This document shows positions 25,489 through 64,000 of a DNA stretch of 64,000 nt, piece after piece (the first letter of the stretch is position 1; each line of letters starts with the position of its first letter). The position numbers were made by a program, and so were the translations under genes. The DNA is taken from NCBI GenBank assembly GCA_963522285.1, contig CAUQWV010000001.1, positions 124,317 to 188,316 of the forward strand. The letters are read 5' to 3'. Source of the stretch: an uncultured Campylobacter sp. Its GTDB lineage: Bacteria > Campylobacterota > Campylobacteria > Campylobacterales > Campylobacteraceae. The notes under the pieces were generated by a model that searched no databases, was not told the DNA's origin, and was given only the letters and a program-made list of their open reading frames with translations.

Positions 25489-25505
25489 TTCAAATTCCTT
25501 TTTTA

Positions 25506-29562: not shown

Positions 29563-29641
29563 TATAATCTGCCCCCTCTCTATTTTAAAATTTACTGCGG
29601 TATTTATAAACCGGTCCGCCGATCTTAGCGGCTTTAAATTT

Positions 29642-30238: not shown

Positions 30239-30458
30239 AATCCGTCCTTTAAATTTATCGCTCGCCCAAGCTTTCGGCTTGCCGCCGCTGCAATTCTCGG
30301 CGCCGCAAGTCGTAAAATGCGCGGCGGCTAAAATTTTATACCGCAGGCTGCCAAAAACCCGTTCAAACGAATTTTAAATTTTACCCGCGTTAAAAACTTG
30401 CAGAAATTTTACCGCCCGCGAATGAAATTTCAGAAGCGGTTAAAATTTTGCGCGTTTT

Positions 30459-31205: not shown

Positions 31206-31240
31206 CGCAAGCCTCTTATATCAAAATTTTATCCCGCTCG

Positions 31241-31879: not shown

Positions 31880-32006
31880 GTTTATCCTTTGAAATTTTAA
31901 GCGCATTTTAACGCTATCGCACTTTTAAACCGATAAAATTTCGCAAAATGATGCTTTTAATAAACGAAACTCGCGCCTAAGCTTTGCAAGCAGAAGCGCC
32001 CCCATT

Positions 32007-32633: not shown

Positions 32634-32754
32634 TTTATCTTCTTTAAAATTCGCGGCATTATAGCGGGTTTGCCTAAATTCCACCCGGCTAGCTTGGCGA
32701 GTTAAGCTAGATTTTGCTAATATTGCCTTTTAAAATTCTGCTACAAGGCATAAT

Positions 32755-34104: not shown

Positions 34105-34609
34105 ATTTTGCAAAGCGGATGGATAGCATGGAAGTTAAAATTTGGCGCTAAAGTAGTCCAAAAGCAACGCGCCAAATTTCATAGCGAACTTGCCGAGATC
34201 CGTTAGCCTTGCAGCGATAGTTTAAAATTTTATGTTTAGATAGAGGAAGGTCAAAGTATGCAGCGGCAATCAGCTTTCGGCGCGACCGGGGCAACCTGCA
34301 TGGCGATCGGTGCGCGTGGCAAAGACGCCGTAGCGCAGCCGCGTCTGATTGCGCTGCGGAATTTTAAAATTCTAAACCTAAACGGTCGGTGCACAGCCGC
34401 CGCGATAGTTTATGACGCGGTCTGTGCAATCTGCCGCAGAAGTGGCGCGTAAAATTTTGTGGTGACCCGCGCGACATCGCGCTTGGAATTTTAAAATTTA
34501 GCGCTAAGGCGATCCAAAAGTAGCGAGCCAAATTTCATAGCGAGATGCGGCGATAGTTTGGAATTTTAAAATTCCGTAGCTTTAAAATTTAAAAATCATC
34601 GGAGAGAAA

Positions 34610-46567: not shown

Positions 46568-46643
46568 GGTTGGATAGCTCAGTCGGTAGAGCAGCAGACT
46601 GAAAATCTGCGTGTCGGCAGTTCGATTCTGCCTCTAACCACCA
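46568..46643 (+). tRNA. tRNA-Phe (GAA)
   Basis: 76-nt cloverleaf: acceptor GGTTGGA/TCTAACC, anticodon arm GCAGA-CTGAAAA-TCTGC, T-loop GTTCGATTC, encoded CCA. Confidence 0.97.
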
Positions 46644-46696
46644 TTTCTTTATAAATCCCTATTTTATAGATATTTCAAAGCTTTAAGGTTTGGCTA

Positions 46697-46716
46697 GGTA
46701 CCATCTTGGGTGCCAT
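46697..46716 (+). repeat. Tandem GGT(A/G)CCAT, candidate integrase arm-type sites
   Basis: GGTACCAT 46697-46704 and GGTGCCAT 46709-46716, ~55 nt after the tRNA 3' end. Confidence 0.4.
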
Positions 46717-47393
46717 ATATTATCGTTTTTAAATTTTATTTTCGCACTCCTCAACCAATACAAGAACGACCTTGGACTTTTTTTGTTAAATCTTAAAATG
46801 AATTAAGTTTTATAATAGGTGACTAAATCTAATTTCTCTTGTCTGTTCTTCTGCAATCATTAACCACAAATCATATTTTAGGCAAATCAATAAACGCGCA
46901 AGAATATTGATTTTTATAAGATAAAAGCAAACAACCAAATGATTATTAATTTTTATCAAGATTAATTGGATTAATTTACCCACAATACAAATATTCTCAT
47001 CCCACAAATATTACAGATATTACAAATAAAGATTTGTAAAAAACTTGCATCCATATAAAGCAAACACAGTACTCAAGTAATCAAATCTTACATAAATTAC
47101 AAATAATACAAGTATTTATACGTTACATATTTTACATATTGGACTGATTGCACATAGATTGAGTGGAGCACATGGATAGATTACATGCGGTACTACGGAT
47201 AATACAGATATGCGTATCCTATACATCCTGCAGATTTGACAAATACAAAAATGCTATAGGTATTTTTGTTTTTCACGTATTACAAATCATACGGATGCAC
47301 ACAGCAACTATTATCAAAAATAAATTTTACGTTTTTACCGGGCGAGCATACTATTTGTACTACGGATTTCACCCGCAATACAAATCATACTCG

Positions 47394-47460
47394 TTAGGGG
47401 GAGCCCCCCCTAAAACCCCTGACTTGGCTAAATTTGATAGCTAAGTGGCAGCTGTCAAAT
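47394..47460 (+). other. Candidate oriT (ColE1 bom-like)
   Basis: Hairpin TTAGGGGG-agcc-CCCCCTAA, inverted repeat ACTTGGCTA/TAGCTAAGT, then GATAGCtaAGTGgcagCTGtC. Confidence 0.5.
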
Positions 47461-48200
47461 TTGTACGTTTTTGCATCAGCACTATATGCAACATAAGTAG
47501 TTTGTGTAATGTATGTACTATTATATAATCATCGCCATCCGTTCTTTGAACAAACTGAGGCATAATTTCATTATTTAGTATATATACGTAAGCACGACCA
47601 TAGCCCTTAAGTAAATTTATAATCTTACAAATCTTTTTCTTTTGCTAAAAGCATTTTATGTTTTATTATACTACATGCTTATTTCTATGCCTTTTAAAAA
47701 CAACATCAATAATCTCAATATTATAAGCCGACTTAGTAATTATCGAGCACATCTTTTCCCGCCCTTGCGTGCACATAGTGGCGCCAAATACCCTAAGCAT
47801 ATAGACAGCCTTCGATTACACATAGAAAATCAAACACTAGCCTGTTTGAATATCAAATGTGATCACGGCAAGCTTACTTAAGTTTTTAGTCATTAATTAA
47901 TACAAAGCTATTTTTGTTCTATCCAGGAAAATATTCCTAAAGCTTTTTTCGTAGAAAATATAACATCATTCATTTGACAGTATTTGAGCGATAAATCCAT
48001 TAGGTGACGACACAAAGGTGCACTAAAAACACCACTTAAATCCATGCAAGTACGAGTTTCTTGTGTCTATATAGCTTACCGGTTTTATAACTTTTAGGCA
48101 GAATTTGCATCTGTCAAATACACATCTGCCGCTAGCTATTAACTTAAAAAAGAGCCTTTACCTATTGATGTAGATTTTTCAGAGATAGGACCAATCATTT

Positions 48201-49238
48201 TTACTTATTTTCTAAAATTTCACAAAGTAGCCAACCAAACGGCTGTTTATTTATAAGCCAAGCTGTCGTCTCTTCCTCTTGGATAGATGGTTTTTCCCTG
48301 CCTCTCATGATTTTTATCCTTCTGGCGCCATCTACCGTAACGGCCTTTGCGCCACTATGCTTACCCACTCGTAATAAAAATTGATTACCGACAGGTTTAA
48401 AATTCTCATATTTTTCGATAAATTTATCAGATAGAGCTTCTCGAGTAAATTCGTCCGTTTCATAGCTAAACTGAGAGGCAAATATCGGCATATAGTGAGA
48501 GTTGCAAGCTTTTATTAGCTCTTCTATGCCAAATTTATTATTTTTTATCGTAAATGTTGTTTTAAATTCGCTTTTTGAGTTTATCGCCTCGTATCTTACC
48601 GGTATGCCTTGACTTACATTTTGATCTCTTGAGGCTCTGTTTCTTTTTATATTTGTAGCAACAGAAGCAAAAGTATGAGACTCTATCACCTCGCTATCAG
48701 CTACCAGAAAATCACTAAAATACTCTTTTGTATCATAACTTTTACTCTTTTTTAAAAGCATTTAACCAAAGGCCGTAGCTATAGCACCCTTTAGTGAGCT
48801 TCCTGGGATTATAGCTTTTTTTAAATTTGGAGATATAAGCGTCTTTTCGACAACTAGTTGGTTTATGACTTTTTTGCCGCCACCTTCTCTTTGAACGACT
48901 TTGCCTATTTTGTCATCATAGTCTTCTGCGATGTTTTTTAGTGCCTGTATTTTATAATAAGACACTTTTCTTGCCAAAGAGCTCTTCTCTTTTATAAATT
49001 TTTGCAGCTTCAATATACCATTAACATTAGTGTCTGAGGCTATTTTCATAAATTCATCTTTAGACTTATCGTCAAGTCTTTTAAAAAAATCAAATTCATC
49101 AAAAACATACATATAGTATTTATCGTCCAGACCTTTGTCTATGACGTAGTTCATAGGCTCATAGGCCTCACCGGTGCCTATGTGTATCGGACTGAGCGGC
49201 TTTAGTTTTATTTTATAGTTTCTGGTTTCATTGTGCAT
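48201..49238 (-). pseudogene. csm5: Csm5 RAMP split by an in-frame TAA (48762-48764)
   Basis: LSPIHIGTG, IPGSSLKGAIATA, LLRVGKHSG, PFGW; the two ORFs are in the same frame. Confidence 0.88.
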
Positions 49239-50115
49239 TTTTTATCTCCGTAGCTATTAGTATGCTATATCCTTGGTGCACCGTATTTGCGTTTGTGGAG
49301 TGTCCGCTTATGGCCTTTCCTATATATTCTTTCTCGTAAATTTCTTCATATACCACCACGCTACCGCTATCGGCCATTAGGATCGGGTTTTTAAAAGGAT
49401 TTGTATTTGCAAGTCCTCCGCCATGTTTGCCAAATCTAGTAAAAGGCTCATAGTAAAATTCTTTTAAATTTTCATCATCTATCACGACTGGACTAAGCGT
49501 CATAAAGGCATTTGAGTTATTTTTTACGGATACCTTTTCAAACGCGCTATACTCAAACGCTCCTTTGCCTATGCTAGCTCTCTTGCCGTAGCCGCTTTTA
49601 GATATAAGCTCAAATGCCGTTTCTAATTCTTTGAGTTCAAATTTATCATCTAGCAAAAAATAAATATCTTGTTTGCCTAATTTTATCTCCATTAAAGCAT
49701 AAGGCGCGAATTTACCGCTGTCATCTGTTGTAAATGTGAGATAATTTATGGAATTTTTGATCGTAGCTGTCTTTTTAAGCTCGTAGCCGATCTCATAGCT
49801 TGTTTTAGCATTTTTGAAATTTCCGCTTTGCAGATCCTCCATGCTAAGCCAAATTTTCTTTCTATTTTCTTTTTTTAGCTCCAAATTTTCGCCCAAAAGA
49901 TGACTTGGCATGCTGGGCTTTGACACATATCCGCTAGCAAAACCGTCAGATACTATCAAAAATGGCTTTTTGTCGTAGTCACTTAGCAGTTCATTTAACC
50001 TATCTTCTCCGAGTCTATATCTGATCGCCCAGCAAATTTGTCCAAACAAAGTATCGCCCTTTAGTGGCGTTGTAAAATTTGACTTGGGCGTTATGGCAGT
50101 TTTATAAAGCGTCAT
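49228..50115 (-). CDS. csm4: Type III-A Csm4 (Cas5-group RAMP)
   Basis: KGDTLFGQICW, FLIVSDGF, GYGKRASIGKG; TAATG coupling to csm3. Confidence 0.92.
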   Translation of the reverse strand: MTLYKTAITPKSNFTTPLKGDTLFGQICWAIRYRLGEDRLNELLSDYDKKPFLIVSDGFASGYVSKPSMPSHLLGENLELKKENRKKIWLSMEDLQSGNFKNAKTSYEIGYELKKTATIKNSINYLTFTTDDSGKFAPYALMEIKLGKQDIYFLLDDKFELKELETAFELISKSGYGKRASIGKGAFEYSAFEKVSVKNNSNAFMTLSPVVIDDENLKEFYYEPFTRFGKHGGGLANTNPFKNPILMADSGSVVVYEEIYEKEYIGKAISGHSTNANTVHQGYSILIATEIKNAQ

Positions 50116-50753
50116 TATTCCCACCTTAAATTTGTAAATTCAACCCTTCCGTAACCCCTTGAGCCACTACCGCCTAGATAGTCGTTTTGTATTAGCTTAA
50201 GTCCGCTCTCAACCATCTCTTTTAACTCGTTTTCGTTGTCGCTATAAGGCTCTTTTTCATCAAAAACTTTTAGTCTGATAACAAGGTCAAATTTCACTCC
50301 AGCTGGCACACGCTCGATCTGGCGAGGATGCTCGGCAGTTCCGCTTTCCCTATTGATCACGTTTTCATATTTTGCTTCGCTTAGTTTTAGCCCTTCGCTC
50401 TCTTTAGACAACAAACAATCTCCAACGCTTATTCTAGTAATACCAAATTTATTCTCTTCATCGCCAAAAATTTTTAGTAAATTTTGTGCCACTTTTTTAT
50501 CTGGCTCTGGTACTTTTTCTAAAATTTTAGAGTTAAAGACCTCTCCTTCGCCATATCCAACTAACCTATTATTCCACTCTAGCAAGCTCCTCATTTTGCC
50601 TTTTAGCGAGCTTCCAGGGATGTAAGGCTTATTTGTGTTTATATCTTTTATCACCTGCGAGTCTATGCCGCCTATCTTCATAGTATCATCGCCGCCACCT
50701 ATATGAAGTCCGCTTAAAAGCTCTATTTGTCCCTTTAAAGTTAAAATTTTCAT
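50115..50753 (-). CDS. csm3: Type III-A Csm3 (Cas7-group RNase)
   Basis: SGLHIGG, IGGIDSQV (catalytic Asp position), PYIPGSSLKGKMRSLLE, YLGGSGSRGYGRV. Confidence 0.95.
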   Translation of the reverse strand: MKILTLKGQIELLSGLHIGGGDDTMKIGGIDSQVIKDINTNKPYIPGSSLKGKMRSLLEWNNRLVGYGEGEVFNSKILEKVPEPDKKVAQNLLKIFGDEENKFGITRISVGDCLLSKESEGLKLSEAKYENVINRESGTAEHPRQIERVPAGVKFDLVIRLKVFDEKEPYSDNENELKEMVESGLKLIQNDYLGGSGSRGYGRVEFTNLRWE

Positions 50754-50762
50754 ATTCTCTCC

Positions 50763-51170
50763 TTATTTTTTAGCAAAGCCTATAACGGCCTCAAAAAAGA
50801 GTTTAAACACCCTCAGATCATCTTTTGTCTTTACTTGAGCCACACATTTATTTATCATCTCGACAAATTCATCGCTTGAACATTTTCTTGACTTAGAGTA
50901 AGCCGCTTTTGAATTTAGCATCTTTACAAATGGCAAAACTTCGCTAAAGTCCTCGCTATTTGACTTTTGCTCTAGCTCGATTATGTAGTCATAAAATGCT
51001 CTTATCTGAGTAGCTTTTGTTCTAGCAGAGACTAGATCAGCGACGCTCTTTGCTGTTTCGTCAAACAAATTTGGATTTTTCTTGTAGTCCAAAACTATCG
51101 GCGGTAAAAAGTCAGCTTGCGGTTTATTACCGGCATTATAGTTGCCGCCGCCACTTCTATATCCATTCAT
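50763..51170 (-). CDS. csm2: Type III-A small subunit Csm2
   Basis: TQIRAFYD, KAAYSKSR, FKLFFEAVIGF. Confidence 0.92.
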   Translation of the reverse strand: MNGYRSGGGNYNAGNKPQADFLPPIVLDYKKNPNLFDETAKSVADLVSARTKATQIRAFYDYIIELEQKSNSEDFSEVLPFVKMLNSKAAYSKSRKCSSDEFVEMINKCVAQVKTKDDLRVFKLFFEAVIGFAKK

Positions 51171-52673
51171 CGTTCTCTCCTTTTATATATGTATTCACAA
51201 ATAGCCATTTTGCTCTCCTTTGGATTGTTTTCTATCACATTGTTTAGCATAAGAAGTAGCTCATTCATCTCGCCGCCACCTTGCATATTTCGAGTAAGCT
51301 ATAGCTTAGCTTTGACTTCCACATCGTATTTTTTACATCCTCGCATACGTTTTTGCTCATTTCGCAAAGCTCAAGCAGTCTATACAAAAACGCCGTATTG
51401 TCTATATTAAATTTAGTAAATTCATCTAAAATTTGACCTCTGACGCTTAAATAGCTATCCCACTTGGCAGTCTCTCCAAAGATACTAATCGCATCTTTTC
51501 CCGTCATCTCTTTTGAGCTCTCCAGCCACTTTTCGCTAGTTTGCGCTAGAAAGCTTATCGGCGTGGACGGTTTTGCTAAAACGATGCCAAAAGAGATACT
51601 TAGATCCTTTGTTTTTATAAATTTCATAAACTCTTGCCTTACAAAAACAGCAAGCTCTATCATCTGGTCATAGCTACCAACTATCAGTAGGTCGTCTCCG
51701 CCTGCAAAGACCGTATAGCTATTTTCAAATTTCTCTTTCATCTTTCTTGGCACATATAAAGAGAAAAGTTATTTATCCCTTTTGAAAATGTGTCAAAATT
51801 TGCAAAGCTTTGCGTAACGTCGCTATGTTTTATGAAATTTCCCATATTATCCACGTCAGCTTTTATAACGGCGATCGCATTATCTCCGCGCGATTTTTTA
51901 GCCAAATCTTCAAAGTCCACTATGCTGCCCGCATTTTTAGCAACGTATGATCTTATATTTTCGCTTATCTCAAGATCCACGTCCATAAAGTCTATGCCTA
52001 TATCTTTGCTGTTTATCTTCTTGCCATTGCTAGCCAGCTTTTCACCAAGACGCACAAAAGCGGCACAAATTTCGCATTTATCCTTGTCGTAAGCTATCTT
52101 TCTTATATTGCAAATCCTGCAAAGAGTTTGATTTGTTATGCCCTTGTCATAAGATAGCACCGGTTCTTGCTCTTTTAAATTTAACTTTTTAAATTTCTCT
52201 AGCTCCACAGCCTTGCTGATCTTGTCCCTTAGCTCTTTATATTGCTGTGGCTCCGTAAAGTCAGCCCTTTTGCACTCCACGCAAGATAGGCTAACACCGC
52301 TAACGCCAAAGAAATTTTTTATAAAATAAGCGTTTATAACGCCTTTTATCTCTTCAAAAGTCGCTTCGTCAAATTTAGGCGATAGCATCTCAAATTTACC
52401 GGCCGTACACGATAAGATACATTTTTCATCTATGCCCAGTTTTTGGCAGACAAATTTAGCCAAGACCATCATGAAAAGCTCGCAGAACGCAGACTTTGCC
52501 CTTAGCACCTTAGCCGCGTTTTTTGAGCCTAGGTTGTCAAATATAAATTTTTGTATCCCGTAAAAGTCTCCGCCCATTAAAAACATCCTATCTTGCAATA
52601 TCTCATCTATACTCTTAGGGTCTTGCTCCAAATTCGCGAAATCATCGTTAAAATAACTGCTAAATTTGTTCAT
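51167..52673 (-). pseudogene. cas10: Compact Cas10/Csm1 lacking the HD domain; two single-base frameshifts
   Basis: GGDFYGIQKFIF, CRIC..CEIC, KADVDNMG, YTVFAGGDD. Adding one base at 51764-51767 and one at 51296-51297 gives ~502 aa ending in an ATGA overlap with csm2. Confidence 0.9.
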
Positions 52674-53496
52674 TCATATCCTCCGTTTTTATTTTCCCTA
52701 GTCCAAAAACAGTCTGCTTGCCTACGCCTATTATCTCACCTAGCTTTAGTAGCTCCATACACTCTTTGCTAACGCCTCTTATCTCCAAAGACCCCACCAA
52801 GCCGCCAAAATTCATAGTAGTGTTTTGTCTGTTGCTGCGCCTAGTTAGCTCCACGTATTTTAGGTCTTTTTTAGTTATCTCGCCTTTTATCTCGCACGCT
52901 AACGCCTCATGACCTTGCCCAAAGAGACCAAGCCTTCTTTGGTAGATGGAGTTTAGTATCTCTTTTAGACTTATATTGTCATTTTTTAAAAAAACATTAT
53001 CTTTTTTTATCCTAAGCGGAGTTATAAATTTGACCCTGACATCGCCTCCGTCACCATCAAAGCTAAATTCTCTCACGTACTCTTTAGGTAGACTTATTTT
53101 ATCCTCCGCCAAGCACGCCTCACCATTTACAAACATATCAAATTTCTCATACCTAACCCTATCTTTGCCAAGACCATATCTCTCTAGCATCATATAGGCC
53201 GCAGAGGCGATATATGGTAGTTTTTCGCACGCGCTCTCTAGCAAAACTATACCAAAGTCATACTCTTTGGCCCCTAGCTCAAAGTCCAGCCTATATCTAT
53301 GGTAGCTATTTTTCTTTTCATAAAAGTCGAAATACAGACAGCTCTCACTTGCAAAGCACTCGTCGCACTTATGCATGTGATTTATACAGCTCACGCTTTT
53401 TAGCGCATATCCAAAGGCTCCTCTCACCTGCGAACCGATAAAAAATGGCAGCTTTTGTGATGGTTCAAATTTTACTCTAAGCTCGGTGTATCTCAT
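52660..53496 (-). CDS. cas6: Cas6 crRNA-processing endoribonuclease
   Basis: GSQVRGAFGYAL, Cys cluster, FITPLRIK, G-rich loop GEIIGVGKQTVFGLG. Confidence 0.93.
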   Translation of the reverse strand: MRYTELRVKFEPSQKLPFFIGSQVRGAFGYALKSVSCINHMHKCDECFASESCLYFDFYEKKNSYHRYRLDFELGAKEYDFGIVLLESACEKLPYIASAAYMMLERYGLGKDRVRYEKFDMFVNGEACLAEDKISLPKEYVREFSFDGDGGDVRVKFITPLRIKKDNVFLKNDNISLKEILNSIYQRRLGLFGQGHEALACEIKGEITKKDLKYVELTRRSNRQNTTMNFGGLVGSLEIRGVSKECMELLKLGEIIGVGKQTVFGLGKIKTEDMNEQI

Positions 53497-53697
53497 CTAC
53501 ACCACCTATTTTCACACAGTCAAAAAGCTCGCCCGCCATGATCTCTTTTACGCCTTTTTTGCATTTGTTTTTATGAAATTTTTAAGATTGGATATAAATT
53601 TATCGAGATTCTGTAGTTCTAACGGCACGCCAAGACTATCCCTTGCAGCCCTTAGCTCGCGAGAAAATATCAAAATCATACTAGTTTCATTATTCAC
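53477..53697 (-). pseudogene. Small ORF heading the cas6-csm operon (49 aa as read, ~73 aa with one extra A)
   Basis: GTG at 53697 below a minus-strand TATAAT (53725-53730); the repaired frame overlaps the cas6 start. Confidence 0.45.
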
Positions 53698-53818
53698 TTT
53701 ACCGCTCGATTTTTAATTTCTGTTATTATACATAAATTAAAAATAAATGTTTATGATTTTTAAGTTTTCTGCTTAAAAATTATTATTTTTTATGTACGCT
53801 CATATCTATTCTATTTAA

Positions 53819-53973
53819 ATTTTAGATTTGCGAGATTTATTAGCTGAAATTTGAGCTTTTTTGGTTAAAATCTCTCAGAGCAAGTTTATGAACTTACAAA
53901 AAAGATTTATAAACTTATCTAAAATGATAAATGCCTATTAAACAAATTTGAGCCGATCTAGGGGACTATAATG
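53819..53973 (+). CRISPR. Shortened leader copy plus a solitary degenerate CRISPR repeat
   Basis: 53938-53968 matches 57266-57296 at 29/31; 53819-53871 matches 56845-56897 at 49/53; 53920-53936 is identical to 57076-57092. Confidence 0.7.
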
Positions 53974-53980
53974 CTATAAT
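53972..53980 (+). promoter_or_regulatory. Extended -10 element (TGCTATAAT), candidate promoter for RT-cas1-cas2
   Basis: TGnTATAAT immediately after the solitary repeat. Confidence 0.45.
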
Positions 53981-54306
53981 GACAGCAAAAGGTGCAAACG
54001 GCAAAAATACCGATCAACCCGATAAGCATTGAAAGTAAAAATTGCAGATAAGACGTAGCCGATCATGAAGTCGGCGCCAAATTAGAAATTTATCGCTAGA
54101 GCCTTATAAGAATACTTAGGAATTGATAGATTATTCTTAGCGGGAATGCAAAAATCAATTTGGAAAGAGCTGTTATGAGACTTTTTAGCAGGGATAAAAG
54201 GATGGCTTTAGGCACACATGAAACAAAAAGAAAATAACAACCTAGCAAAGTTTACCACACATATAGATAATAGAAAAACTCTATCTATTTAAAGGCGGGC
54301 ATCAAT

Positions 54307-56542
54307 ATGTTCATGAAAACCTTAGAACAGATATTTACCAAAAATGCTTTAAGCTTTGCTTTTGACGAAATTTCCGCAAGCTCTTCGGGGTTAGATGATA
54401 TCTCATACGCAGATTTTAAGAAAAACTTTGACGAAAATACAAATCATATTATACGCTCACTGACAAACGGCACCTACGCGCCCGAACCGCTAAGAAAGAT
54501 CAACATCCCCAAAGAAAATCGTAGCGGAGTAAGACCCATAGGCATATCCTCCATAAAAGATAAGTTGGTTCAAAGGGTTTTATACTCGGAGTTAAGTCCA
54601 TATTTTGACGAGACGTTTTTATCAAATTCATATGCCTACCGCCCGCATAAATCAACCTACAAAGCCATAAACAGAGCTAGTAATTTCATAAACGAGGGCG
54701 ACTGCTGGATACTCAAAGCCGACGTAAAAGACTTTTTCGAGTCGATAGACCACTCAAAGCTACTGCAAATTTTACAAAAACATATAAAAGACGCAAAGAT
54801 CATAAGCCCAATATCGCTCTTTTTAAAAACCGGCGGATTTTTAAAGCATGACTTTAAAGAACACAAAAATCGGCGTCAATCAGGGCGATATACTATCTCC
54901 CATGCTGTCAAATATCTACCTTGATTTAATGGATAGATTTATAAACAAAACCACGGATAGATTTGTTAGATATGCAGACGATTTTATCGTGTGCTTTGGA
55001 GAAAAAGACGAAGCGACGGATTTTGAGCAAAAGCTAGATGGATTTTTAAAACTACTAAATTTATCCCTCAACAAAGAAAAAACTAAAGTTGTAAACATAA
55101 ACGATGGATTTGTCTTACTGGGTGTTCGTTTCTTTGGAAAAAACCGCTGCGTGGATAATGACAAAATTCAAAAGATCATCTCAAATTTGCACTCCGCAAG
55201 TAAGGAAAAAACAAATTTCATCGACTATATCGACGAGATAAATGCTATTTTGCTTACGCTTAAAAACTACTATCTAAAAATAATACCGCCAAACTCACCG
55301 CAAATAGCGCAGATAAAAGAGCATCTCATAGAGTCCCTGTCGCAAAAGATCGCTCTGCATAAGCAAAACAAAAGCATAAACTCTAAAAAAGAATTTACGC
55401 TCTACCTCGAAAAGATCGATTTTTTGGTATTGTTTAACCAAAACGAGATAAAAGACAAAATAGCCCTAGCTGTGACAAAAGGATATGAAAAATACCTATC
55501 CAAAAAGACTTACGAAAACGACTCCCGCAAGATAAATCAAAAGCGAAATTTCTACGCCTTCAAAATAGCCTCCGACTCGACGCTTCATATCAATCAGATC
55601 GGAGTCCATCTAGGCCTTAGCAAAAATAAATTTACCATAAAACAATACGGTAAAATTTACAAAGAATTTCCTATTTCTAAAATTTCACGCATCATTGTCG
55701 ATAGCGAACACATCTCCTTATCTTCTGCAGTGATCTGGCGCTGCACAAGAGAAAAAATCCATATCGATTTTATAAACAAGCACTACGTCCCATACGCCAC
55801 TTTACTGGCTTACAACAGCGTTTCTACACAGATGGCGCATAAGCAAGCCATGCTCCTAAATACGCCGACGCAACTATATCTTGCCACCTCTTTGGTCGAA
55901 TCAAAGATAAAAAACCAAACCAACTACCTCAAGTACTTAAATAAATACCATAAATTTCTAACTCCAAATATCCAAAAACTAGAAATATCCTAGCAAGAAA
56001 GCTAAAATACGCCAAAAATACAAATGAACTCATGGGCTTTGAGGGCTCGGCTGCTGCTATTTACTGGGACGGCATAAAAAGCATATTGCCGGTAGAATTT
56101 GAAAAACGCATAACATTTGGCGCCAAAGACATCGTAAATTCATCGCTAAACTACGCCTACGCTATACTTTACTCCAAGGTTCAAGAGTGCCTATATGTCG
56201 CAGGGCTTAGCCTGCATATCTCATTTTTGCATGCGCTTGATAGCACAAAGCCGACCCTAGTCTTTGATATGATAGAGCAGTTTAGGACATTTATGGTAGA
56301 TAGAGTCATCGTCTCGATGCTAAATAAAGACGAACCTATCTCGCTAAACAAAGACGGGCTTCTCACCGACGCCTCTAAAAAGCTCATAGCCCAAAATATG
56401 AAAGAAAAACTCGACAGCTACACTATGTGGAAAAAAGAGTCATGCAAATGCGAAAACATAATCATGCAAGAGTGCTACGGACCTAGCTCGCTTTATAAAC
56501 GGCGAGAGCAAAAGTTATAAACCTTTTGTGGGAAAATTCTAA
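54307..56542 (+). pseudogene. cas1: Reverse transcriptase-Cas1 fusion with three single-base frameshifts
   Basis: RT motifs RPIGISSIKDKLVQ, SYAYRP, KADVKDFFESI, GVNQGDILSPMLSNIYL, RYADDF; Cas1 motifs ELMGFEGSAAAIYW, NSSLNYAY, FLH, DMIEQFR. Repaired ~744 aa ends TAATG into cas2. Confidence 0.92.
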
Positions 56543-56817
56543 TGAAATTTGTAATAGCCTATGACATACAAAGCAATAAAAATCGCAAAAAACTCTCCGA
56601 CATCCTAGAAGGCATCGGATACCGCGTAAATTTTAGCGTCTTTGAGTGCGAGCTAAACGAAACCAAGCTAAAAAAACTCATCAAAACCGCCAAACCTCTC
56701 CTAAACGTCAAAACCGATAGCCTTAGATTTTATAGACTATGCGAAAACTGCGTGGATAAAAGCTTTGAGCTTTGCGACAAACCAGCCATCTTTGAAACAC
56801 AAGAGCTCTTTGTTTAG
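56542..56817 (+). CDS. cas2: Cas2
   Basis: VIAYDI, RVNFSVFEC, DSLRFY. Confidence 0.95.
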   Translation: MKFVIAYDIQSNKNRKKLSDILEGIGYRVNFSVFECELNETKLKKLIKTAKPLLNVKTDSLRFYRLCENCVDKSFELCDKPAIFETQELFV

Positions 56818-56844
56818 CTTATGTCATTCTTAAATCTCTCTTTG

Positions 56845-57263
56845 ATTTTAGATTTGCGAACTTTTTTAGCTTAAATTTGAGCTTTTTTGGTTAAAATTTC
56901 GCAAAATAAGTTCGCAAATGTCTATATTTTAAAATATACTCTTTTGCATTTGCGAACTTTTAGTTATGTCTAAGCTTAGGATAGCCTATTTTAGGGGATT
57001 GCGAAACTTATATATCGCTTAAAGTTCGCAAACCTATAAAATTTGAAAATTTTAAAGGAGATTTGCGAACTTTTTTAAAATGATAAATGCCTGAATTTAG
57101 GGGTTCTTTAACTTATCGTTGTTAATTTTACGGAGTTGGTATTTTTAAATATCTATACATTTGCGAACTTTTTTTGAGATTTCTGCGAATTTTAGGTGTT
57201 TTAAAAGATGTTTTCTTAAATAAATTTATTAGTTTTTCTATTGCGAGAGTAGTCTTTTAGGCT
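56845..57263 (+). promoter_or_regulatory. AT-rich CRISPR leader with repeated TTTGCGAACTT motifs
   Basis: Non-coding, between cas2 and the repeat; motif at 56852, 56948, 57061, 57159 (+) and 56908, 57021 (-). Confidence 0.7.
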
Positions 57264-57299
57264 ATTTAAACAAATTTGACCCGATCTAGGGGATTAAGC
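57264..57299 (+). CRISPR. Single CRISPR repeat, no spacers
   Basis: ATTTAAACAAATTTGACCCGATCTAGGGGATTAAGC: CCC/GGG hairpin and ATTAAG 3' end as in type III repeats; no further copy downstream. Confidence 0.75.
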
Positions 57300-57703
57300 A
57301 AAATTAAGTTTGCTTGAAAAAAGAGTTAAAGATGAACGTAAAGCCAAGAGATACGGCTATAGTAGTGTTAGTTAAAGAAGTATAAGTTTGCACTCAAGAG
57401 TCATAAGCCCAAAAAGGCTTGCGTCAGAAGACAAGAAAGCATCAAAATGATACAAAATGACAGCCAAAACAAAAAAGAGTTTTAGAAAATTTCACCATAT
57501 TAGGCTGGCTACGCTTTTTAATATTTTCAAAAAGATTTTATGCGGTTGACTTAAAACACAATATGGCTGGATTTACCGCTCAAAGAAATTATCGATTAAA
57601 GTTACATTGCTCTCCTTATCTCCAAGCCTTAACCCATTTTCTAGCTCCCTGCCTATACTCTCACTATTTATTTTTTCTATGCATTCTGCACCTTTGCCCT
57701 TAT

Positions 57704-58135
57704 CTAGCTTTGACTTTTCTTCTGTTGCGCCAATAAGTCCGGCAACAGCTCGGACGACTTTGTCAAATTTGCCTGCAAATTCTCCAAAGGTTCGGTAAAG
57801 CTCTTTAACGTTTCGTCCAAATCGCTTAAAGAGCTCTCTAGTGCTTGAGGTAATGTCGATAGTTTTTTCATTTGCATCGATAGCGTCACCAAGCTCTTTG
57901 ATATCAGCTCGTCTGACGATAAGATTTGATTGTTTAGATGCTCTATACTTTCGTTTTCTTTCGAGATCCGAGATAAGAGATCTGATATCTGCTTGTTTTG
58001 ACAAAATTCTATTTTGGATAGTTTTAATATTATATACGACAGCTCCTCTAAACTCATTTTCGCCAAGTCCATCTCGTTTAATGTCTCCACTTCCTCCAAA
58101 CCTATCTCTTCCAAATTCGTGTTCATATCTATCAT
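57704..58135 (-). CDS. Coiled-coil gene nested in another frame of the relaxase (MbeD-like position)
   Basis: 143 aa, AAGGAG RBS ahead of the ATG, Leu/Ser/Glu heptad pattern. Confidence 0.6.
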   Translation of the reverse strand: MIDMNTNLEEIGLEEVETLNEMDLAKMSLEELSYIILKLSKIEFCQNKQISDLLSRISKENESIEHLNNQILSSDELISKSLVTLSMQMKKLSTLPQALESSLSDLDETLKSFTEPLENLQANLTKSSELLPDLLAQQKKSQS

Positions 58136-58363
58136 TTATATTCTCCTTTATTATGGTCTCTTCGTTTTTGTTAGCCGACACAAAACTCACCCTATCATCA
58201 ATTTGGTCAAAACCTATCTTTGCTTCTGTCGTGCTACCGGCTTCTAATTCAAATTTAGGCCCGGCGGCTCCATACCTCTTTTCTCCCAAGGATAAAAGAT
58301 TTTTTATCTCACTATTTCTATAGTTTTTAGCTTCTTTTAACCTATGAGCCAATATGGCTATAT

Positions 58364-58567
58364 TTAGGTCTTTTCTTGAAATTTACTCTCTAAATTTGTA
58401 CCGAATACTTTGGCCTCCATCTTGTCTACCAAACGCTCTAAATAGGCTAACCTTTTGGAGTATTTGATTAGCAGGCAAATTATCTCTTGCATCCTTATAC
58501 GCTCTTGCTCTTTCTCTAGCTTTGCTTGAGGGCTCTCCCAAATCTTTAAGACTTCTAAATTTTTCAT
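58364..58567 (-). CDS. Small gene nested in another frame of the relaxase (MbeB-like position)
   Basis: 67 aa, AAAGGAG upstream of the ATG. Confidence 0.5.
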   Translation of the reverse strand: MKNLEVLKIWESPQAKLEKEQERIRMQEIICLLIKYSKRLAYLERLVDKMEAKVFGTNLESKFQEKT

Positions 58568-59269
58568 GAAAAATTTCTCCTTTAAAACGTTTTGATTTTT
58601 TGCTACCTGGTAGCTTTACGGACACATAGTCTTTTCCTATCCTAGTAACTTCTATGTCGCTATCCTTTAAAGACTTTAAAATATCGTCTCTACAGCGGTA
58701 TTTACCCTTTATCAGGTTATCTACTATAATCTTTTCAAGCTCTTCACAATTTTTGCTATCCTTTACATCCTTTTTAGATCCTTGCATTATTTGTTGGTTT
58801 TTTGGATCGCAAGGATCAGTTAAACAATATTTTAAGTTGATAAAATTTTTCCAGGTATTTATCATAGAAAAATCCTTCTTGTGATAGTAAGGATTAAAGC
58901 TTCTAAAATTTAAAAGCTCGACTTTTGGGATACAAAAATTTAGCTCCAAGTTATTCTTATCGCTGTGTTCTACCCAAGAATATTAAAATTTGTGCCAAAG
59001 CCTCCAAAGATCATTTCTTCAAATGATCTTATTATCTTTAGCTTGGTTTCTTCATTTATATCAAGTTCGTTAAATGAAAGACACCCCATGCTAAGCTTTT
59101 GCTTTTTACTTATCATGGATATTATACTTCTAGTTATAGCCTCGGATCCCGATACTACCCTGGCGCTACCAAGACCGACTCTTTCGTTTAATAAATAATC
59201 TATACCTCGCGACGAGCCTCCGAACCGATTTTTAAAAAACTTAACTATCATCTAGACTTGCTTTTATTT

Positions 59270-59548
59270 TTACGTATCTTTTATTGTCGCGTCCAAATTT
59301 AGTTGCACCGCAGAGTACGTTAGATCCGAGCAAAATTGTATATTATCTTTATCCTGGCAAGATACAGAAGATACTGTATCAACATTGTTATCTATATCAC
59401 TAGAATTTTCTTCGTCTAAAAACTCGTCCAACGATGCATCTTCCTGAACTGCATTATCAGCATAAGAACTCTGTGATCCATTTGCACTTTGGCCCACAAA
59501 GTTATTAGAAATTTTAGTAATAGGCTTGCTGCGTTTCTTCAAATACAC
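59270..59548 (-). CDS. Hypothetical acidic protein between mobC and the relaxase
   Basis: 92-aa ORF overlapping the mobC end. Confidence 0.45.
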   Translation of the reverse strand: MYLKKRSKPITKISNNFVGQSANGSQSSYADNAVQEDASLDEFLDEENSSDIDNNVDTVSSVSCQDKDNIQFCSDLTYSAVQLNLDATIKDT

Positions 59549-59846
59549 AATTTACCAAAATATCCATAGATGCTCTTATCTGTTCAATCTTAGTAAGAGC
59601 GTTGGAATCTAAATTATCGTCAGAATTTAGCTTTGCCGCTATTTGATTTAGCAAATTACCAAATTTATTAATTTGCCTTACAGCCTCTTTATCTATACGA
59701 TGAATCGGAGTCTTACTGCCACATATAAGGCTTTTAACATACTCGGATTCGGTTTGCCCGGCAAGATTGGCATTCATTATTAGCCTATCCAATTGCTCTT
59801 CATTAAGTCTAATTGTTACGGATTTCGGAAAGTCAACTGCCTTCAT
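59514..59846 (-). CDS. mobC: Mobilization accessory protein MobC (ribbon-helix-helix)
   Basis: SVTIRLNEEQ...SEYVKSLI RHH; RQINKFGNLLNQIAAKLN signature. Confidence 0.88.
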   Translation of the reverse strand: MKAVDFPKSVTIRLNEEQLDRLIMNANLAGQTESEYVKSLICGSKTPIHRIDKEAVRQINKFGNLLNQIAAKLNSDDNLDSNALTKIEQIRASMDILVNCVFEETQQAYY

Positions 59847-60049
59847 ACCAACTCCTCATTTTTAACGACAGCATGCTTTTCAAGCCACCTGTCCAACTCT
59901 AGCCTATCGTATCTCACATTAGAGTTAATCTTGGTAAAAGGTATAATTCGTTGCATACGGTATTTTGCTTGAGTATTTACCGATAATCCATACTCTTTTG
60001 CTACATCTTTTGGTGTTAGCCATCTTTTTTCCGAAAAAATATTGCTCAT
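59843..60049 (-). CDS. Excisionase-like HTH protein
   Basis: WLTPKDVAKEYGLSVNT...IPFTKI...VRYDRLELDRWL; AGGAG RBS. Confidence 0.85.
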   Translation of the reverse strand: MSNIFSEKRWLTPKDVAKEYGLSVNTQAKYRMQRIIPFTKINSNVRYDRLELDRWLEKHAVVKNEELV

Positions 60050-60139
60050 AGTATTCTCCTAAAAAATTTAGGAAATTGTATTAAAAAAGTAGAATTTATT
60101 TCCGCATTTTTTGTATAAAAACAATAAATTTTGCGGTTT

Positions 60140-60877
60140 TTAAATAAGAACAAAAGTAGTTTTATAGTTTAGGTCGTAGGTTATGGTTTTTATGGCGGTA
60201 TTTATTGCTGAGACAAACTCATTGCGTTTTGTTCTCTCATCAATTTTTAGATTTTTATACCTATTCATTTCCCTCAAAGTATTTTGTATGTCTTTTTCAT
60301 ACTTATAATATCTACAATCCGCTATAGTTTCATAATCATATAGAAGATAAAATTCTGCAGACATAAGATTGTTAAAAGAATTAATAACATCCCTATATCC
60401 TTTATGTTTTTGACAAATCAAAGAATTAGTTTTGGCTACCATATAAATAAACAAACAATATCCAAGATCATACAGATCGACATCTAGATATTTGCTAGTT
60501 TCGGCTATATAGTCTATATTATCTTGGATGCATCCTTTTCTTTTTTTACTTTTTTCTACCAACTTCAAATAGCTCTCGTCATAATCATATGCACCCGTAA
60601 GTCTATCATAAGTAAAATGATCTTCATAGCTTCGAAAGCTGTATTTATCGGCATCAGCAAACATATAATTCTCAAAAAAAGGCAATATTAGTTCCCTCGC
60701 AAACTCGATTATACTCGGAACCGAAGAAACAGCCAATATATTTTGATTATTACAAGAGTTTTTCTCAACTAAGCTTACAGCTATTGCTTTTAATAAATCC
60801 AATGCTCGGCAAGGATCTGACTTTAATATCAAACCGTCTATTTCAATATCTTTGCTCATATTTTCTACATCCCACAT
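60140..60877 (-). CDS. Hypothetical Tyr-rich protein between integrase and excisionase
   Basis: 245-aa uninterrupted ORF; alternative start at 60859. Confidence 0.7.
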   Translation of the reverse strand: MWDVENMSKDIEIDGLILKSDPCRALDLLKAIAVSLVEKNSCNNQNILAVSSVPSIIEFARELILPFFENYMFADADKYSFRSYEDHFTYDRLTGAYDYDESYLKLVEKSKKRKGCIQDNIDYIAETSKYLDVDLYDLGYCLFIYMVAKTNSLICQKHKGYRDVINSFNNLMSAEFYLLYDYETIADCRYYKYEKDIQNTLREMNRYKNLKIDERTKRNEFVSAINTAIKTITYDLNYKTTFVLI

Positions 60878-62002
60878 TTAATATTATCTAACATCTCAAG
60901 AACCTTACAGCTATTTATATAGGTATCGTAAGTTATGTAATTTTTATATGTAACACCATCTCTTTTGTGAGTTAAATGATCTTTAATAATGTCACTATTC
61001 GCACCAAGTTCTTCGAGTGCCGAACCGCTTATGTGTGTCTAGTGCCGTGTAGCTTAAAATCATCAAAACCCACAAATTTATCGAGTTTCATCTTTTGTCT
61101 ATCCGTATTTTTAATAGACTCGCCGGTTTTTGGACTTGCAAATACTAGACCGCATCTATCGGTCGGTATTTGCGTTATGGCTTCTTTTACGAGTAAAGGA
61201 AGCGGCTTTTTATAGTCGTTTTCGTTTTTTGTATCTATTAAGTAATATACGTCGTTTTCCAAGTCGATGTTTTCCCATTTTAGGCTGGCTACTTCTCCTT
61301 TTCGCCTACCATACAGGCAAAATAATAAAAATCCTCTCCAAAACGGATCGTCTTTATAAAGCTCCAAGATAGCCATTTTTAACTTGTAAAATTTACCAAC
61401 AGCATCTTTTACTATCGTTTTTCTAGTCGTTTTAGCTATTTTAGTTAGCAGAGTGCAAGGATTTACTACTATTAGCTGATTGCGAAGCGCTATGTCAAAC
61501 ATCTCACCTAAAATTCGTCTTGTATTATCATATGCCGTACGCTTTGACAATACCTGCACTTTTCCTATTATTTTATTAAATTTTCCATCGCGCATTAGAT
61601 TATGGATAATATCGTCTATTTGGGCAGCTATAACGTCTACTACGATCTCTTTGCCAATACTGTCTTGCAAATAGGTCTCATAAAATGCAATGTCGCTAGC
61701 TACCGACTTTTGCCGATATCCTTTTTGCCTTTCCACAGTTCAAACAGATCATTAACCTTAGTAGTATCTTTAAATTTGAGCCCCTTTGCCTGCTTGCTTA
61801 CGCCCTCTAGCCACTTTAGAAGCTCTTTTTTGGCTTCGTTTTTGTATTCTCTCTTGCTCCATCCGCTACGAGTATCTAGCGTAAGCACTTTTGTGAAGTA
61901 TTTACTGCCAATAACCTTTCTTAGCAAAAAGACGTTTGGTTTTATTTTGTGTACAAATAGGCAAGTTTCAACCTTTCTATAATCAAGTTTATTAATCGCC
62001 AT
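60865..62002 (-). pseudogene. Tyrosine integrase with two frameshifts
   Basis: YGRRKGEVASLKW box I, DTKN, KLHGTRH; the next frame continues ISGSALEELG...HLTH...NY (box II). Shifts near 61710 and at a CACACA run near 61035. Confidence 0.9.
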
Positions 62003-62010
62003 TTTAACGC

Positions 62011-63192
62011 CTAATACAACAATCCAAGCAGCCAAAGCGGTATTTTATTACCGCTTCCTGCCTCTATTTCATCGGCAGCTATATATGAGTCTGAGATACC
62101 TTTTATCTGTTCAAAGCTCTTATTTTTTCCACCCACTTCAAATATAAATTTATCATCTACAATAAAGTCGCCTTGTTTTGGGATATTTAGCCTATGTTTT
62201 ACCCTTAGCTGATTAGCAAAAAAAGTCTCTCTTATGGTGCCCGCCTTGCAATCATCGCCGTAAGCGTAAATCAAATTTGTATTATTCATATATATTTTTG
62301 CCGGCCTTACTAGCTTACTAAGTCCCCTACTTTGCTCATCTATCATATTTACTAGCCTTGCATCTTTTAAATAGGCGATATAATCATATAGTTTAGCTCT
62401 ACTTATCTCGGCAAGAGCTGCGATTTTAGTATAATTCACCTCAAACGGCTCGCTTTGGCAAACTACTTCAAGCAGTTTTTTAAGCTTATATGTGTATTTT
62501 TGCTCAACTAACCCGAGAGACGTTAGATCTACGTCTATACTTAGATTAATCGTGTTTAGCAAGCTTTCGTAGTATGAGCTTTGCTTATTAAAGTAAAATG
62601 GATAGTAGCCAAATTTGAGATATTTTTTAAATTGACTTAGCTTTATTTTTAGGTCGTTTGCTATTGCCTGATGGTTTTTTAGTATCGTCTCTAGGCTAAA
62701 TTTATCTATCGTCACACCGTTTTCAAGCTCTAAAAACTCTCTAAAACTAAGCCCCTCTAGGCTAAATACGCTAACCCTACGCGATAAATCGCTTTTTGCG
62801 TTTAGTATACTTACCGCCGATGAACCGGTAAAAATTACATTTAAAGGACTCATATCGTATATAGTTTTTAAGTGTGCGGCAAAATCTTCGTATTTATGCA
62901 CTTCATCTAGCAACAGATATTCGCCGCCGTTATCTACAAATTCAAAGGCAAGTTCGCTAAGACTAGCAGAGCCTAAAAACGGGTAATCAAGACTTACGTA
63001 TAGAGCCTTTTTGTTTTGAGCTTTTAATTCAATCAGCTTTTGAAATAGCATTGTAGTCTTACCTGTGCCGCGGGCTCCTACTATGCCGATAAGCTTCTCG
63101 CTAAAATTTATTTCATTGTATAAATAACGCTTGTATGTCGTATTAAAATTTTTAAGAAATCTTTCTTGATACTGCTCTATTAAATTTAACAT
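62011..63192 (-). CDS. AAA+ ATPase (AAA_14/DUF4143-like) with C-terminal PD-(D/E)xK-like segment
   Basis: GARGTGKT, LLLDEVHK, FTGSS, YLKFGYYP, GDFIVDDKFIFEVGGK; start at ATG 63192 after AAAGGG. Confidence 0.85.
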   Translation of the reverse strand: MLNLIEQYQERFLKNFNTTYKRYLYNEINFSEKLIGIVGARGTGKTTMLFQKLIELKAQNKKALYVSLDYPFLGSASLSELAFEFVDNGGEYLLLDEVHKYEDFAAHLKTIYDMSPLNVIFTGSSAVSILNAKSDLSRRVSVFSLEGLSFREFLELENGVTIDKFSLETILKNHQAIANDLKIKLSQFKKYLKFGYYPFYFNKQSSYYESLLNTINLSIDVDLTSLGLVEQKYTYKLKKLLEVVCQSEPFEVNYTKIAALAEISRAKLYDYIAYLKDARLVNMIDEQSRGLSKLVRPAKIYMNNTNLIYAYGDDCKAGTIRETFFANQLRVKHRLNIPKQGDFIVDDKFIFEVGGKNKSFEQIKGISDSYIAADEIEAGSGNKIPLWLLGLLY

Positions 63193-63788
63193 TTTTATCC
63201 CTTTATGTAATTGTCTATAAACGTAGACAATATTAAGACATATTAGCATGAAATTTTTAAATTGTCAACGTCTATAAACGATTATACTGTCATGTAGCAT
63301 TTTATTTAAATTTTTATCTTCGTAATTTTAGTTTTACCAAAGTCGTTTGTGGCGTATCATATACTTATTTAACCAGTCTTTACAACTAGCTAAGTTAATA
63401 TAAAACATACGTATTTTCTATAACAATAAGCCTTTGAGAATATTCTATAAAATTCCTTGAGTCGTTCTTAACAGGCTTGCATATAGTATCTTAGAAATTT
63501 ATGCAGTTTGGTAAACGTGAGTTTAAACGACAATTGTTTTGTCTGTCAGCTTATTAGAGTCACTATTAAACTTTAAATATACTTCTTTCTCTGTCATTAT
63601 CTACGGGTTTATTTTAAATACTTGTATTATAATCCTTGAATATTTAGGATTATAATAGAATATTCTTATATTTGTGAATTTATTTGATATGCTGATTGGT
63701 GCTAATAAAAAGTAAAATCTTATTTGGTCTTACTTTTCTACAATAAAGCCATCTTGCTTGTGAGATGCGAAAAAACCGTAATGAAAAA

Positions 63789-63998
63789 TCAGCTTAAATC
63801 AATATCTCTGGGCAAATAGTTAGAAAAAATTTTAACTACCGTATTTTTATCTTCTCTCTCCAGGAAGCGCAACACTTGATTGCAGTATTCTTTATTTTTT
63901 AAATTGAAATAATGCCCTACGCTTTCTACAATTCCTTTTTCATTGAAAATTTTTAATATTTCTACATAGTCTTTAGCATTATCATATATTGTTAATTT
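63789..63998 (-). CDS. 3' end of an uncharacterised gene entering from the right edge
   Basis: Open frame KLTIYDNAKDYVEILKIFNEKG...FSNYLPRDIDLS* to TGA at 63789-63791. Confidence 0.6.
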   Translation of the reverse strand, partial: KLTIYDNAKDYVEILKIFNEKGIVESVGHYFNLKNKEYCNQVLRFLEREDKNTVVKIFSNYLPRDIDLS

Positions 63999-64000
63999 TT

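What the first reader, a model, noticed from the sequence alone, without database searches (positions are those of the whole stretch)
46644..64000. tRNA-Phe-integrated mobilizable element carrying a type III-A CRISPR-Cas system with an RT-Cas1 fusion
Seen: tRNA, candidate oriT, csm5-4-3-2-cas10-cas6, divergent RT-cas1-cas2, leader and repeat, relaxase, mobC, xis-like gene, integrase and AAA ATPase, with no conjugation (T4SS) genes in view. Known: RT-Cas1 fusions of type III systems can acquire spacers from RNA; the well-studied Campylobacter system is type II-C. Inference: a hitch-hiking element that spreads an RNA-recording, RNA-targeting immune module. I cannot establish novelty without a search.
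Basis: partly seen in the sequence, partly recalled or inferred. Interest (0 to 1): 0.85.

Follow-up and report, generated by a model that had tools for sequence, protein, structure and literature searches.

The report
Decayed mobile RNA-recording CRISPR island
A hitch-hiking DNA element in a Campylobacter relative carries a broken copy of an RNA-targeting CRISPR immune system that is intact in related bacteria, where it sits on two different kinds of mobile element and remembers phage genes.

Summary
The anatomy is confirmed. A 25-bp copy of the tRNA-Phe 3' end lies 3.2 kb beyond the window, so the element is 20.6 kb, and one relative has the empty site. It belongs to a Campylobacteraceae family of tRNA-Phe integrative mobilizable elements with exchangeable defence cargo. 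The candidate oriT matches a site upstream of mobC on two MOBP-type plasmids. As assembled, this copy is dead: csm5, cas10, RT-cas1, relaxase and integrase are broken, there are no spacers, and no Csx1 effector. Real decay is likelier than assembly error but is not proven. Seventeen of 325 genomes in the family carry the cassette at 91-99% Cas10 identity, on this backbone (4) or on an unrelated relaxase backbone (10). Cas10 lacks the HD domain. Relatives' spacers read antisense to mRNA (427 of 521) and some match prophages. RT-Cas1 type III systems on tRNA islands are known from Vibrio; the relaxase-bearing vehicle and the two backbones were not found in ten paper searches. Transfer and RNA capture are inferred, not shown.

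The parts
46568..46643 (+). tRNA-Phe (GAA), intact; its last 25 bp (46619-46643) are the attL core, repeated exactly as attR at G000:C1:191494-191518, beyond the window
46697..46716 (+). Imperfect 20-bp repeat also found just inside attR; candidate integrase arm-type site (function inferred)
47340..47420 (+). Candidate oriT: inverted repeat followed by a G/C hairpin; same frame of motifs inside attL of sister elements and upstream of mobC on two small Campylobacter plasmids
   Evidence: fold z -2.8, 3 of 200 shuffles as good
48201..49238 (-). csm5, broken by an in-frame stop at codon 159
49228..50124 (-). csm4, intact
50115..50753 (-). csm3, intact
50763..51170 (-). csm2, intact
51167..52673 (-). 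cas10 without HD domain (502-505 aa in relatives), GGDD kept; two frameshifts near 51296 and 51764
52660..53496 (-). cas6, intact
53800..53970 (+). Short leader copy and one degenerate repeat; also single in L078, so probably inherited in this state
54307..56545 (+). RT-cas1 fusion (744 aa in relatives, 90-93% identical), YADD kept; three frameshifts near 54865, 55983, 56479
56542..56817 (+). cas2, intact
56818..57295 (+). Leader and first 33 bp of one repeat; relatives continue here with an array, WYL, DarTG and CARF-HEPN genes, all missing in this copy
57573..59251 (-). MbeA-like (MOBP) relaxase, at least two breaks; about 50% identical to sister relaxases
59514..59846 (-). mobC (NikA-like)
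59843..60049 (-). HTH_17 protein, probable excisionase (inferred from family and position)
60140..60877 (-). 245-aa protein of no known family, present at this position in sister elements (26-28% identical)
60870..62002 (-). Tyrosine integrase, 85-96% identical to sister elements; frameshifts near 61032 and 61708
62011..63249 (-). AAA_14+DUF4143 ATPase (PADLOC PDC-S01-like), intact
63789..64000 (-). 3' end of an intact AriAB (PARIS-type fusion, 526 aa, L001:2106-3686). Beyond the window follow the rest of it, a second, frameshifted AAA ATPase (L001:3710-5049) and attR (L001:5495-5519)
   Evidence: PADLOC 464 bits

Best explanation
A 20.6-kb member of a Campylobacteraceae family of integrative mobilizable elements (IMEs) at tRNA-Phe. 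Layout: attL, oriT, left cargo slot, relaxase-mobC-xis-hypothetical-integrase-ATPase, right cargo slot, attR. Working members would excise with integrase and Xis, be nicked at oriT by the relaxase and use another element's conjugation channel (inferred). This copy took a type III-A cassette into the left slot. In intact relatives RT-Cas1/Cas2 adds spacers, probably from RNA as well as DNA; Cas6 cuts crRNA; Csm binds phage transcripts; the HD-less Cas10 can act only through cyclic oligoadenylate on CARF-HEPN RNases (inferred from family knowledge). The window's copy has lost array and effector and is decaying; only AriAB and one ATPase remain as plausible working cargo.
For: Shown: attL/attR; empty site in G010, 89% over 398 bp to the flank beyond attR; both att sites around the same backbone in G133, G143, G213, G205, G229; other cargo in the same backbone, including CBASS; G202 has the same integrase-ATPase-AriAB-ATPase right arm without cas genes; oriT-like motif upstream of mobC on both plasmids examined; G133 has every gene unbroken; spacers antisense-like 427 of 521 against 29 of 55 for the host type I-B array; 14 spacers match prophage loci. 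For real decay: 11-12 lesions in about 16 kb of island genes against at most 6 flagged of 127 core genes over 142 kb; similar short homopolymer breaks in the same genes of G033, G143, G192, G194, L072, L079; array and effector loss cannot be an indel error.
Against: Private substitutions in the cas genes show no excess of amino-acid changes (20 N/62 S against 91/220 pooled, p 0.41), which a long-dead locus should show. Lesions are not significantly clustered in genes (p 0.10-0.28). No reads of the source were available. No circle, transfer, expression or RNA-derived spacer was observed. Antisense spacers also follow from selection on any type III system. The empty site was seen in 1 of 13 relatives' tRNA loci; most hold other sequence.
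Confidence: 0.75

Rival explanations
1. The element is as described but its genes are whole in the cell; the frameshifts are local assembly errors, for example low coverage of an island present in part of the population.
For: Most lesions are single-base changes in runs of 2-5 identical bases; no excess of non-synonymous changes; no significant clustering.
Against: Core genes are almost free of breaks; 2.8 kb of the island (ATPase1, AriAB) has none; csm5 has a substitution stop where 20 of 20 relatives have Glu; spacers and CARF effector are absent whatever the indels; similar breaks occur in other genomes.
Confidence: 0.17
2. The region is a pile-up of independent insertions at a tRNA hotspot: a cas cassette at attL and a separate IME behind it, never moving together.
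For: The region is a mosaic; nearest relatives change along it. L079, L081 and G033 have the cassette directly behind tRNA-Phe with no mob/int genes in the DNA held. Other linked genomes have the opposite order.
Against: Only two att cores exist in the genome, enclosing everything. The oriT-like site lies left of the cas genes and the relaxase right of them, the spacing of the left cargo slot in G213, G205, G202, G229. The L079 and G033 contigs end before the place where mob genes would lie.
Confidence: 0.12
3. The cassette spreads mainly by natural transformation and homologous recombination between resident islands; the relaxases are passengers.
For: Strong mosaicism; RT-Cas1 of the two backbones is interleaved in trees; relaxase or integrase is broken in several carriers; no conjugation families found in this genome.
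Against: Conserved oriT-like site, mobC and relaxase in cas-free and cas-bearing members; integrases about 90% identical across two genus-level groups. The two routes can coexist.
Confidence: 0.2

Closest known systems
Vibrio type III systems with RT-Cas1 on genomic islands (PMC6360697, passages): V. metoecus III-A island at tRNA-Leu, V. vulnificus YJ016 III-D island
   Same: Type III locus on an island, empty site in other strains; RT domain in 14 of 18 Cas1 proteins there.
   Different: The word relaxase does not occur in that paper. Here there is a relaxase/MobC/oriT module, an HD-less Cas10, a different class of host and two backbones.
Defence-carrying IMEs of E. coli (PMC10121019, passages)
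   Same: tRNA hotspots, hitch-hiking on conjugative elements, variable defence cargo.
   Different: The passages seen name no CRISPR cargo on IMEs; here the cargo includes a complete adaptive system.
Type III-A CRISPR on SCCmec (PMC10434264, abstract)
   Same: Type III-A on an excisable chromosomal cassette shared between species.
   Different: Resistance cassette of staphylococci; no RT or relaxase named in the abstract; transfer was not achieved there.
RT-Cas1 fusions, clade 2A of Epsilonbacteraeota (PMC6013744, passage); autonomous RT-Cas1 modules (PMC5513706, passages)
   Same: RT-Cas1 architecture, YADD, type III context, horizontal spread.
   Different: Clade membership was not tested against reference sequences. 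A likely vehicle of spread is identified here, and some spacer targets are identifiable.
HD-less Cas10 (PMC11229360, passage)
   Same: About a third of type III-A loci there have no recognisable HD domain (65% have one); cyclase near-ubiquitous.
   Different: No difference in kind; the domain is deleted outright here (residue 29 aligns with residue 220 of 9zs2).
Small MOBP-type plasmids of C. jejuni and C. volucris
   Same: Relaxase 46-48% identical over about 290 aa to the intact sister relaxase; mobC; same oriT-like motif.
   Different: Replicons, not integrated; motif upstream of mobC, whereas in the IME it lies downstream of the relaxase, near attL.

Membership tests
Integrative mobilizable element | Integrase and flanking att direct repeats at a specific site | tested here: met
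   integrase frameshifted in this copy
Integrative mobilizable element | Relaxase and/or oriT | tested here: met
   MbeA-like relaxase (broken), MobC; motif shared with MOBP-type plasmids; nick site not mapped
Integrative mobilizable element | No own conjugation channel | tested here: met
   none among element ORFs; PF03135 and PF02534 not found in the genome
Integrative mobilizable element | Empty site in relatives | tested here: met
   G010, (1 of 13 loci)
Integrative mobilizable element | Excision and helper-dependent transfer | not testable with these tools
   no source reads; the joints listed include no attP joint, but only one end of the element was laid
Type III-A CRISPR-Cas | cas10/csm1, csm2, csm3, csm4, csm5, cas6 | tested here: met
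   csm5 and cas10 broken here, whole in relatives
Type III-A CRISPR-Cas | Cas10 cyclase motif GGDD | tested here: met
Type III-A CRISPR-Cas | Cas10 HD nuclease (common, not obligatory) | tested here: not met
   absent in about 35% of III-A loci
Type III-A CRISPR-Cas | Array with spacers and a cOA effector (needed for function) | tested here: not met
   window: two single repeats, no CARF gene; CARF-HEPN gene in 15 of 17 close genomes
RT-Cas1 adaptation module | RT fused to Cas1 with YADD, next to cas2 and a leader | tested here: met
   744-aa fusion in 12 of 17 close genomes; four pieces here
RT-Cas1 adaptation module | Spacer acquisition from RNA | tested here: inconclusive
   antisense bias fits, as in PMC6821258, but selection explains it too
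RT-Cas1 clade 2A | Placement in the reference RT tree | not tested
   no reference sequences at hand

The most novel reading that the evidence does not exclude
Oral Campylobacteraceae share one portable immune cassette (RNA-recording RT-Cas1, signalling-only type III-A, CARF-HEPN RNases, WYL, DarTG) that is swapped between at least two unrelated mobilizable backbones and two cargo slots, probably by recombination at shared AAA-ATPase genes, and is carried across genus-level lines by conjugative helpers while its arrays keep recording prophage transcripts.
Probability: 0.4. Interest if true: 0.65.

Novelty: new variant of a known kind. Interest (0 to 1): 0.47.

Why it matters
RT-Cas1 modules are known to spread horizontally, and their spacer sources have been called enigmatic (PMC5513706). 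This family supplies a likely vehicle, a fully intact example (G133), natural RT-deleted variants (G143, G192, G194) and matching prophage targets in related genomes. That makes RNA-based adaptation and the transfer of an adaptive immune system testable in one host group. The window's own copy matters mainly as a pointer to the family and as an example of how such cargo decays.

Tried and rejected
Spacer targets: no match for the L078 array and one weak match for the L059 array among 50,697 phage records; one weak match for the G225 array among plasmids; none in the host genome beyond one 26-bp partial. Self-targeting as the cause of decay: none of 100 host spacers matches the element or fetched loci over 24 bp or more. 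A YATCCTG-like nick motif (recalled) near 47230 is not conserved in G077 or G033, rejected. Direct plasmid BLAST of the oriT candidates gave nothing useful; the match came from reading two relaxase-hit plasmids. No att repeats were found around the second backbone in 6 genomes tested, so its ends are undefined. No run holds more than 12% of the window's words and no RNA holder is listed. Two RNA runs laid on the right part of the G133 element show no depth on the island while flanking genes are read; those strains probably lack it, so this says nothing on expression. The window row in the tree had one piece in the wrong frame, so its long branch is an artefact; one search corrects it. Four look-ups of earlier scan findings returned nothing. 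No large protein-database search, fold or complex prediction was run; the key proteins had clear families.
Full report
Observation. tRNA-Phe ends at 46643 and GC drops from about 46-53% to 28-39% behind it. Profile scans give csm5, csm4, csm3, csm2, cas10 and cas6 on the minus strand, RT-cas1 and cas2 on the plus strand, then an MbeA-like relaxase, MobC, an HTH_17 protein, a 245-aa unknown, a tyrosine integrase and an AAA_14+DUF4143 ATPase. The window is G000:C1:124317-188316. The last 25 bp of the tRNA recur exactly once in the genome, at C1:191494-191518, so the element spans 20,584 bp. The part beyond the window holds an intact AriAB gene (PADLOC 464 bits) and a second, broken ATPase. Of 13 relatives' tRNA-Phe loci, one (G010) continues into sequence 89% identical over 398 bp to the flank beyond attR; one (G033) holds the island's left end; the rest hold other sequence.

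The backbone. The integrase has matches in 15 of 325 Campylobacteraceae genomes, this one included; named records with it include three C. concisus isolates. G133, G143, G213, G205 and G229 show both att sites around the same relaxase-mobC-xis-hypothetical-integrase-ATPase block, 20-25 kb apart. Cargo lies in two slots, between attL and the relaxase end, and between the ATPase and attR. It varies: CBASS in L087, and in G202 the same ATPase-AriAB-ATPase arm as here, without cas genes. Of six further integrase-bearing genomes fetched, the five displayed have no cas genes in the element; G201 was not displayed. The same frame lies upstream of mobC on both small Campylobacter plasmids examined, found through relaxase similarity; one is typed MOBP, mobilizable, the other non-mobilizable despite its annotated relaxase. 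This supports an oriT; the nick is unmapped. Neither PF03135 nor PF02534 was found in the host genome, so transfer would need an incoming helper.

The cassette. Cas10 matched 32 of 325 genomes; 17, all in one other genus-level group, are 91-99% identical to the intact query. Of these 17, four carry the cassette in the right slot of the tRNA-Phe element (G133, G143, G192, G194), ten next to an 816-aa relaxase with a different, long integrase in several, two in a third setting and one on a contig too short to tell. The 816-aa protein resembles relaxases of proteobacterial, mostly conjugative, plasmids over its first 240-290 residues at 27-29%. No att repeats were found for that backbone in six genomes, so its mobility rests on relaxase, integrase and low GC. 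Among 29 metagenome loci, three show the tRNA-Phe backbone genes, eight the 816-aa relaxase, and two place the cassette directly behind tRNA-Phe as here. Some loci from different tools are probably duplicates, so the counts are not additive, and kin are not independent. RT-Cas1 is whole (744 aa) in 12 of the 17 genomes, cut to 270 aa in 3, missing in 1 and beyond the contig end in 1. Fifteen of the 17 continue with WYL, DarG, DarT and a CARF-HEPN gene (split in three), and G133 adds a second Csx1-type gene. G133 has every gene unbroken. RT-Cas1 proteins of the two backbones are interleaved in trees, and the host's own type III-D RT-Cas1 is only 41% identical. G151 joins the 816-aa relaxase to the first backbone's ATPase, and G147, G149 and G137 keep a 200-bp scar of that ATPase beside csm5. 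I infer swaps by recombination at these ATPase genes; direction and order are not established. In the window the cassette sits in the left slot, so it entered the tRNA-Phe element at least twice or was rearranged. Nearest relatives change along the element.

Cas10 starts directly behind cas6 and aligns from residue 29 with residue 220 of a solved Csm1; the HD nuclease is absent and GGDD is kept. About a third of III-A loci lack a recognisable HD domain (PMC11229360), so this is not new, but it makes the system depend on cyclic oligoadenylate effectors, which the window's copy lacks.

Activity in relatives. Relatives' arrays gave 547 distinct spacers, 521 after removing near-duplicates; some come from neighbouring type III arrays with a similar repeat. 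By a codon model 427 of 521 read better as antisense to mRNA; the method scores 86% on true antisense fragments and 29 of 55 on the host's type I-B spacers; the host's III-D array gave 7 of 11, too few to judge. One array searched against 142 genomes hit non-array sites. In 11 fetched target regions, 14 of the 547 spacers matched over 24 bp or more, all within 7 regions: 9 antisense inside a called ORF, 4 outside or at the edge of called ORFs but opposite to the neighbouring genes by my reading of the ORF table, and 1 sense to an integrase gene. Genes from six of those regions were scanned; 19 of 20 have phage families (exonuclease VIII, RecT, replication, baseplate, tail fibre, integrase). 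The other four regions gave no match. So intact systems target prophage transcripts. RNA origin of the spacers is inferred from the RT and from V. vulnificus data (PMC6821258); selection on type III targeting gives the same bias.

State of this copy. Against intact relatives: csm5 has an in-frame stop where 20 of 20 have Glu; cas10 two frameshifts, RT-cas1 three, integrase two, second ATPase two; the relaxase at least two breaks. The second repeat stops after 33 bp and the array, WYL, DarTG and CARF genes are gone. Core genes show at most 6 flagged of 127 over 142 kb, and similar homopolymer breaks hit the same genes in other genomes. Against long decay: private changes are 20 non-synonymous to 62 synonymous, no different from relatives (p 0.41), and lesions are not clustered beyond chance (p 0.10-0.28). 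Source reads were not available. Recent decay by slippage is my preferred reading, about 4 to 1 over local assembly error. The host's separate III-D system with whole RT-Cas1 and a 15-repeat array, and a type I-B system, may have made the cargo redundant; that is speculation.

Literature. Ten searches listed no paper that, by title or abstract start, describes this element; two searches returned no paper. The library lacks most subscription papers, and no supplements were read; supplementary tables of RT-CRISPR surveys may list these loci. Seen as passages: PMC6360697 (type III with RT-Cas1 on Vibrio islands, one at tRNA-Leu), PMC10121019 (defence-carrying IMEs), PMC6013744 (clade 2A RT-Cas1 in Epsilonbacteraeota), PMC5513706 (autonomous, horizontally spread RT-Cas1), PMC11229360, PMC6821258, PMC5133609 (Csm genes tabulated in one C. 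concisus strain among the table rows seen, no element context in the passages), PMC12669027 and PMC11656645 (nothing specific). Seen as abstract: PMC10434264 (III-A on SCCmec). Roles of Xis, MobC, Cas6, Csm3, CARF-HEPN, PARIS and DarTG are recalled family knowledge.

Verdict. A real IME with a decayed RT-Cas1 type III-A cassette. Each component and the broad idea are known. The relaxase-bearing vehicle, the two slots, the second backbone and the identifiable phage targets appear undescribed within these searches. New variant of a known kind; interest 0.47, most of it owed to the intact relatives.

Noticed in passing
G000:C2:80061-97922 (L036): Separate host type III-D locus with whole RT-Cas1 (731 aa), Cas10d and a 15-repeat array whose repeat shares its 3' half with the island's; its Csx1 looks split into 257 and 167 aa.
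   Followed up: partly
G000:C11:9011-9700 and 21501-35178: Type I-B-like system (named from my reading of the ORFs, not scanned) with a long array, and a separate degenerate array of another repeat.
   Followed up: partly
L022:6541-11108, L023, L024, L025: A diverged (41-60%) HD-less csm5-4-3-2-cas10 cluster with no cas6, cas1 or array, beside a long ORF of up to 1144 aa; in L022 and L025 a tRNA-Phe att core lies 5-6 kb away. Looks like an orphan effector module.
   Followed up: no
L132:2063-4038 (plasmid NZ_CP021643.1): C. concisus plasmid pICON has a RAMP gene, a 38-bp match to cas10, a HicA toxin and an integrase close together; possibly a remnant of a related cassette.
   Followed up: no
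G143, G192, G194 (L108, L112, L121); L062: Natural deletions removing the RT and the start of Cas1 (230-270 aa left) while arrays and effectors remain; a ready comparison for RT-dependent acquisition.
   Followed up: no
G133 (L106:13500-14400): An extra leader-plus-array copy just inside attR.
   Followed up: no
L087, G213, G229: CBASS (cyclase, phospholipase, E2) in the right slot of the same element (scanned for L087; same ORF starts).
   Followed up: partly
L066:15708-20337: LeoA/LeoBC-like dynamin pair and WYL gene next to csm5, a further setting of the cassette.
   Followed up: no
window 56845-57180: The leader holds several direct and inverted copies of a 12-13 bp motif, also seen in the G133 leader; possible regulator sites.
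   Followed up: no
window 57704-58135 and 58364-58567: Small ORFs overlapping the relaxase in other frames, as mbeB/mbeD do in ColE1 (recalled).
   Followed up: no
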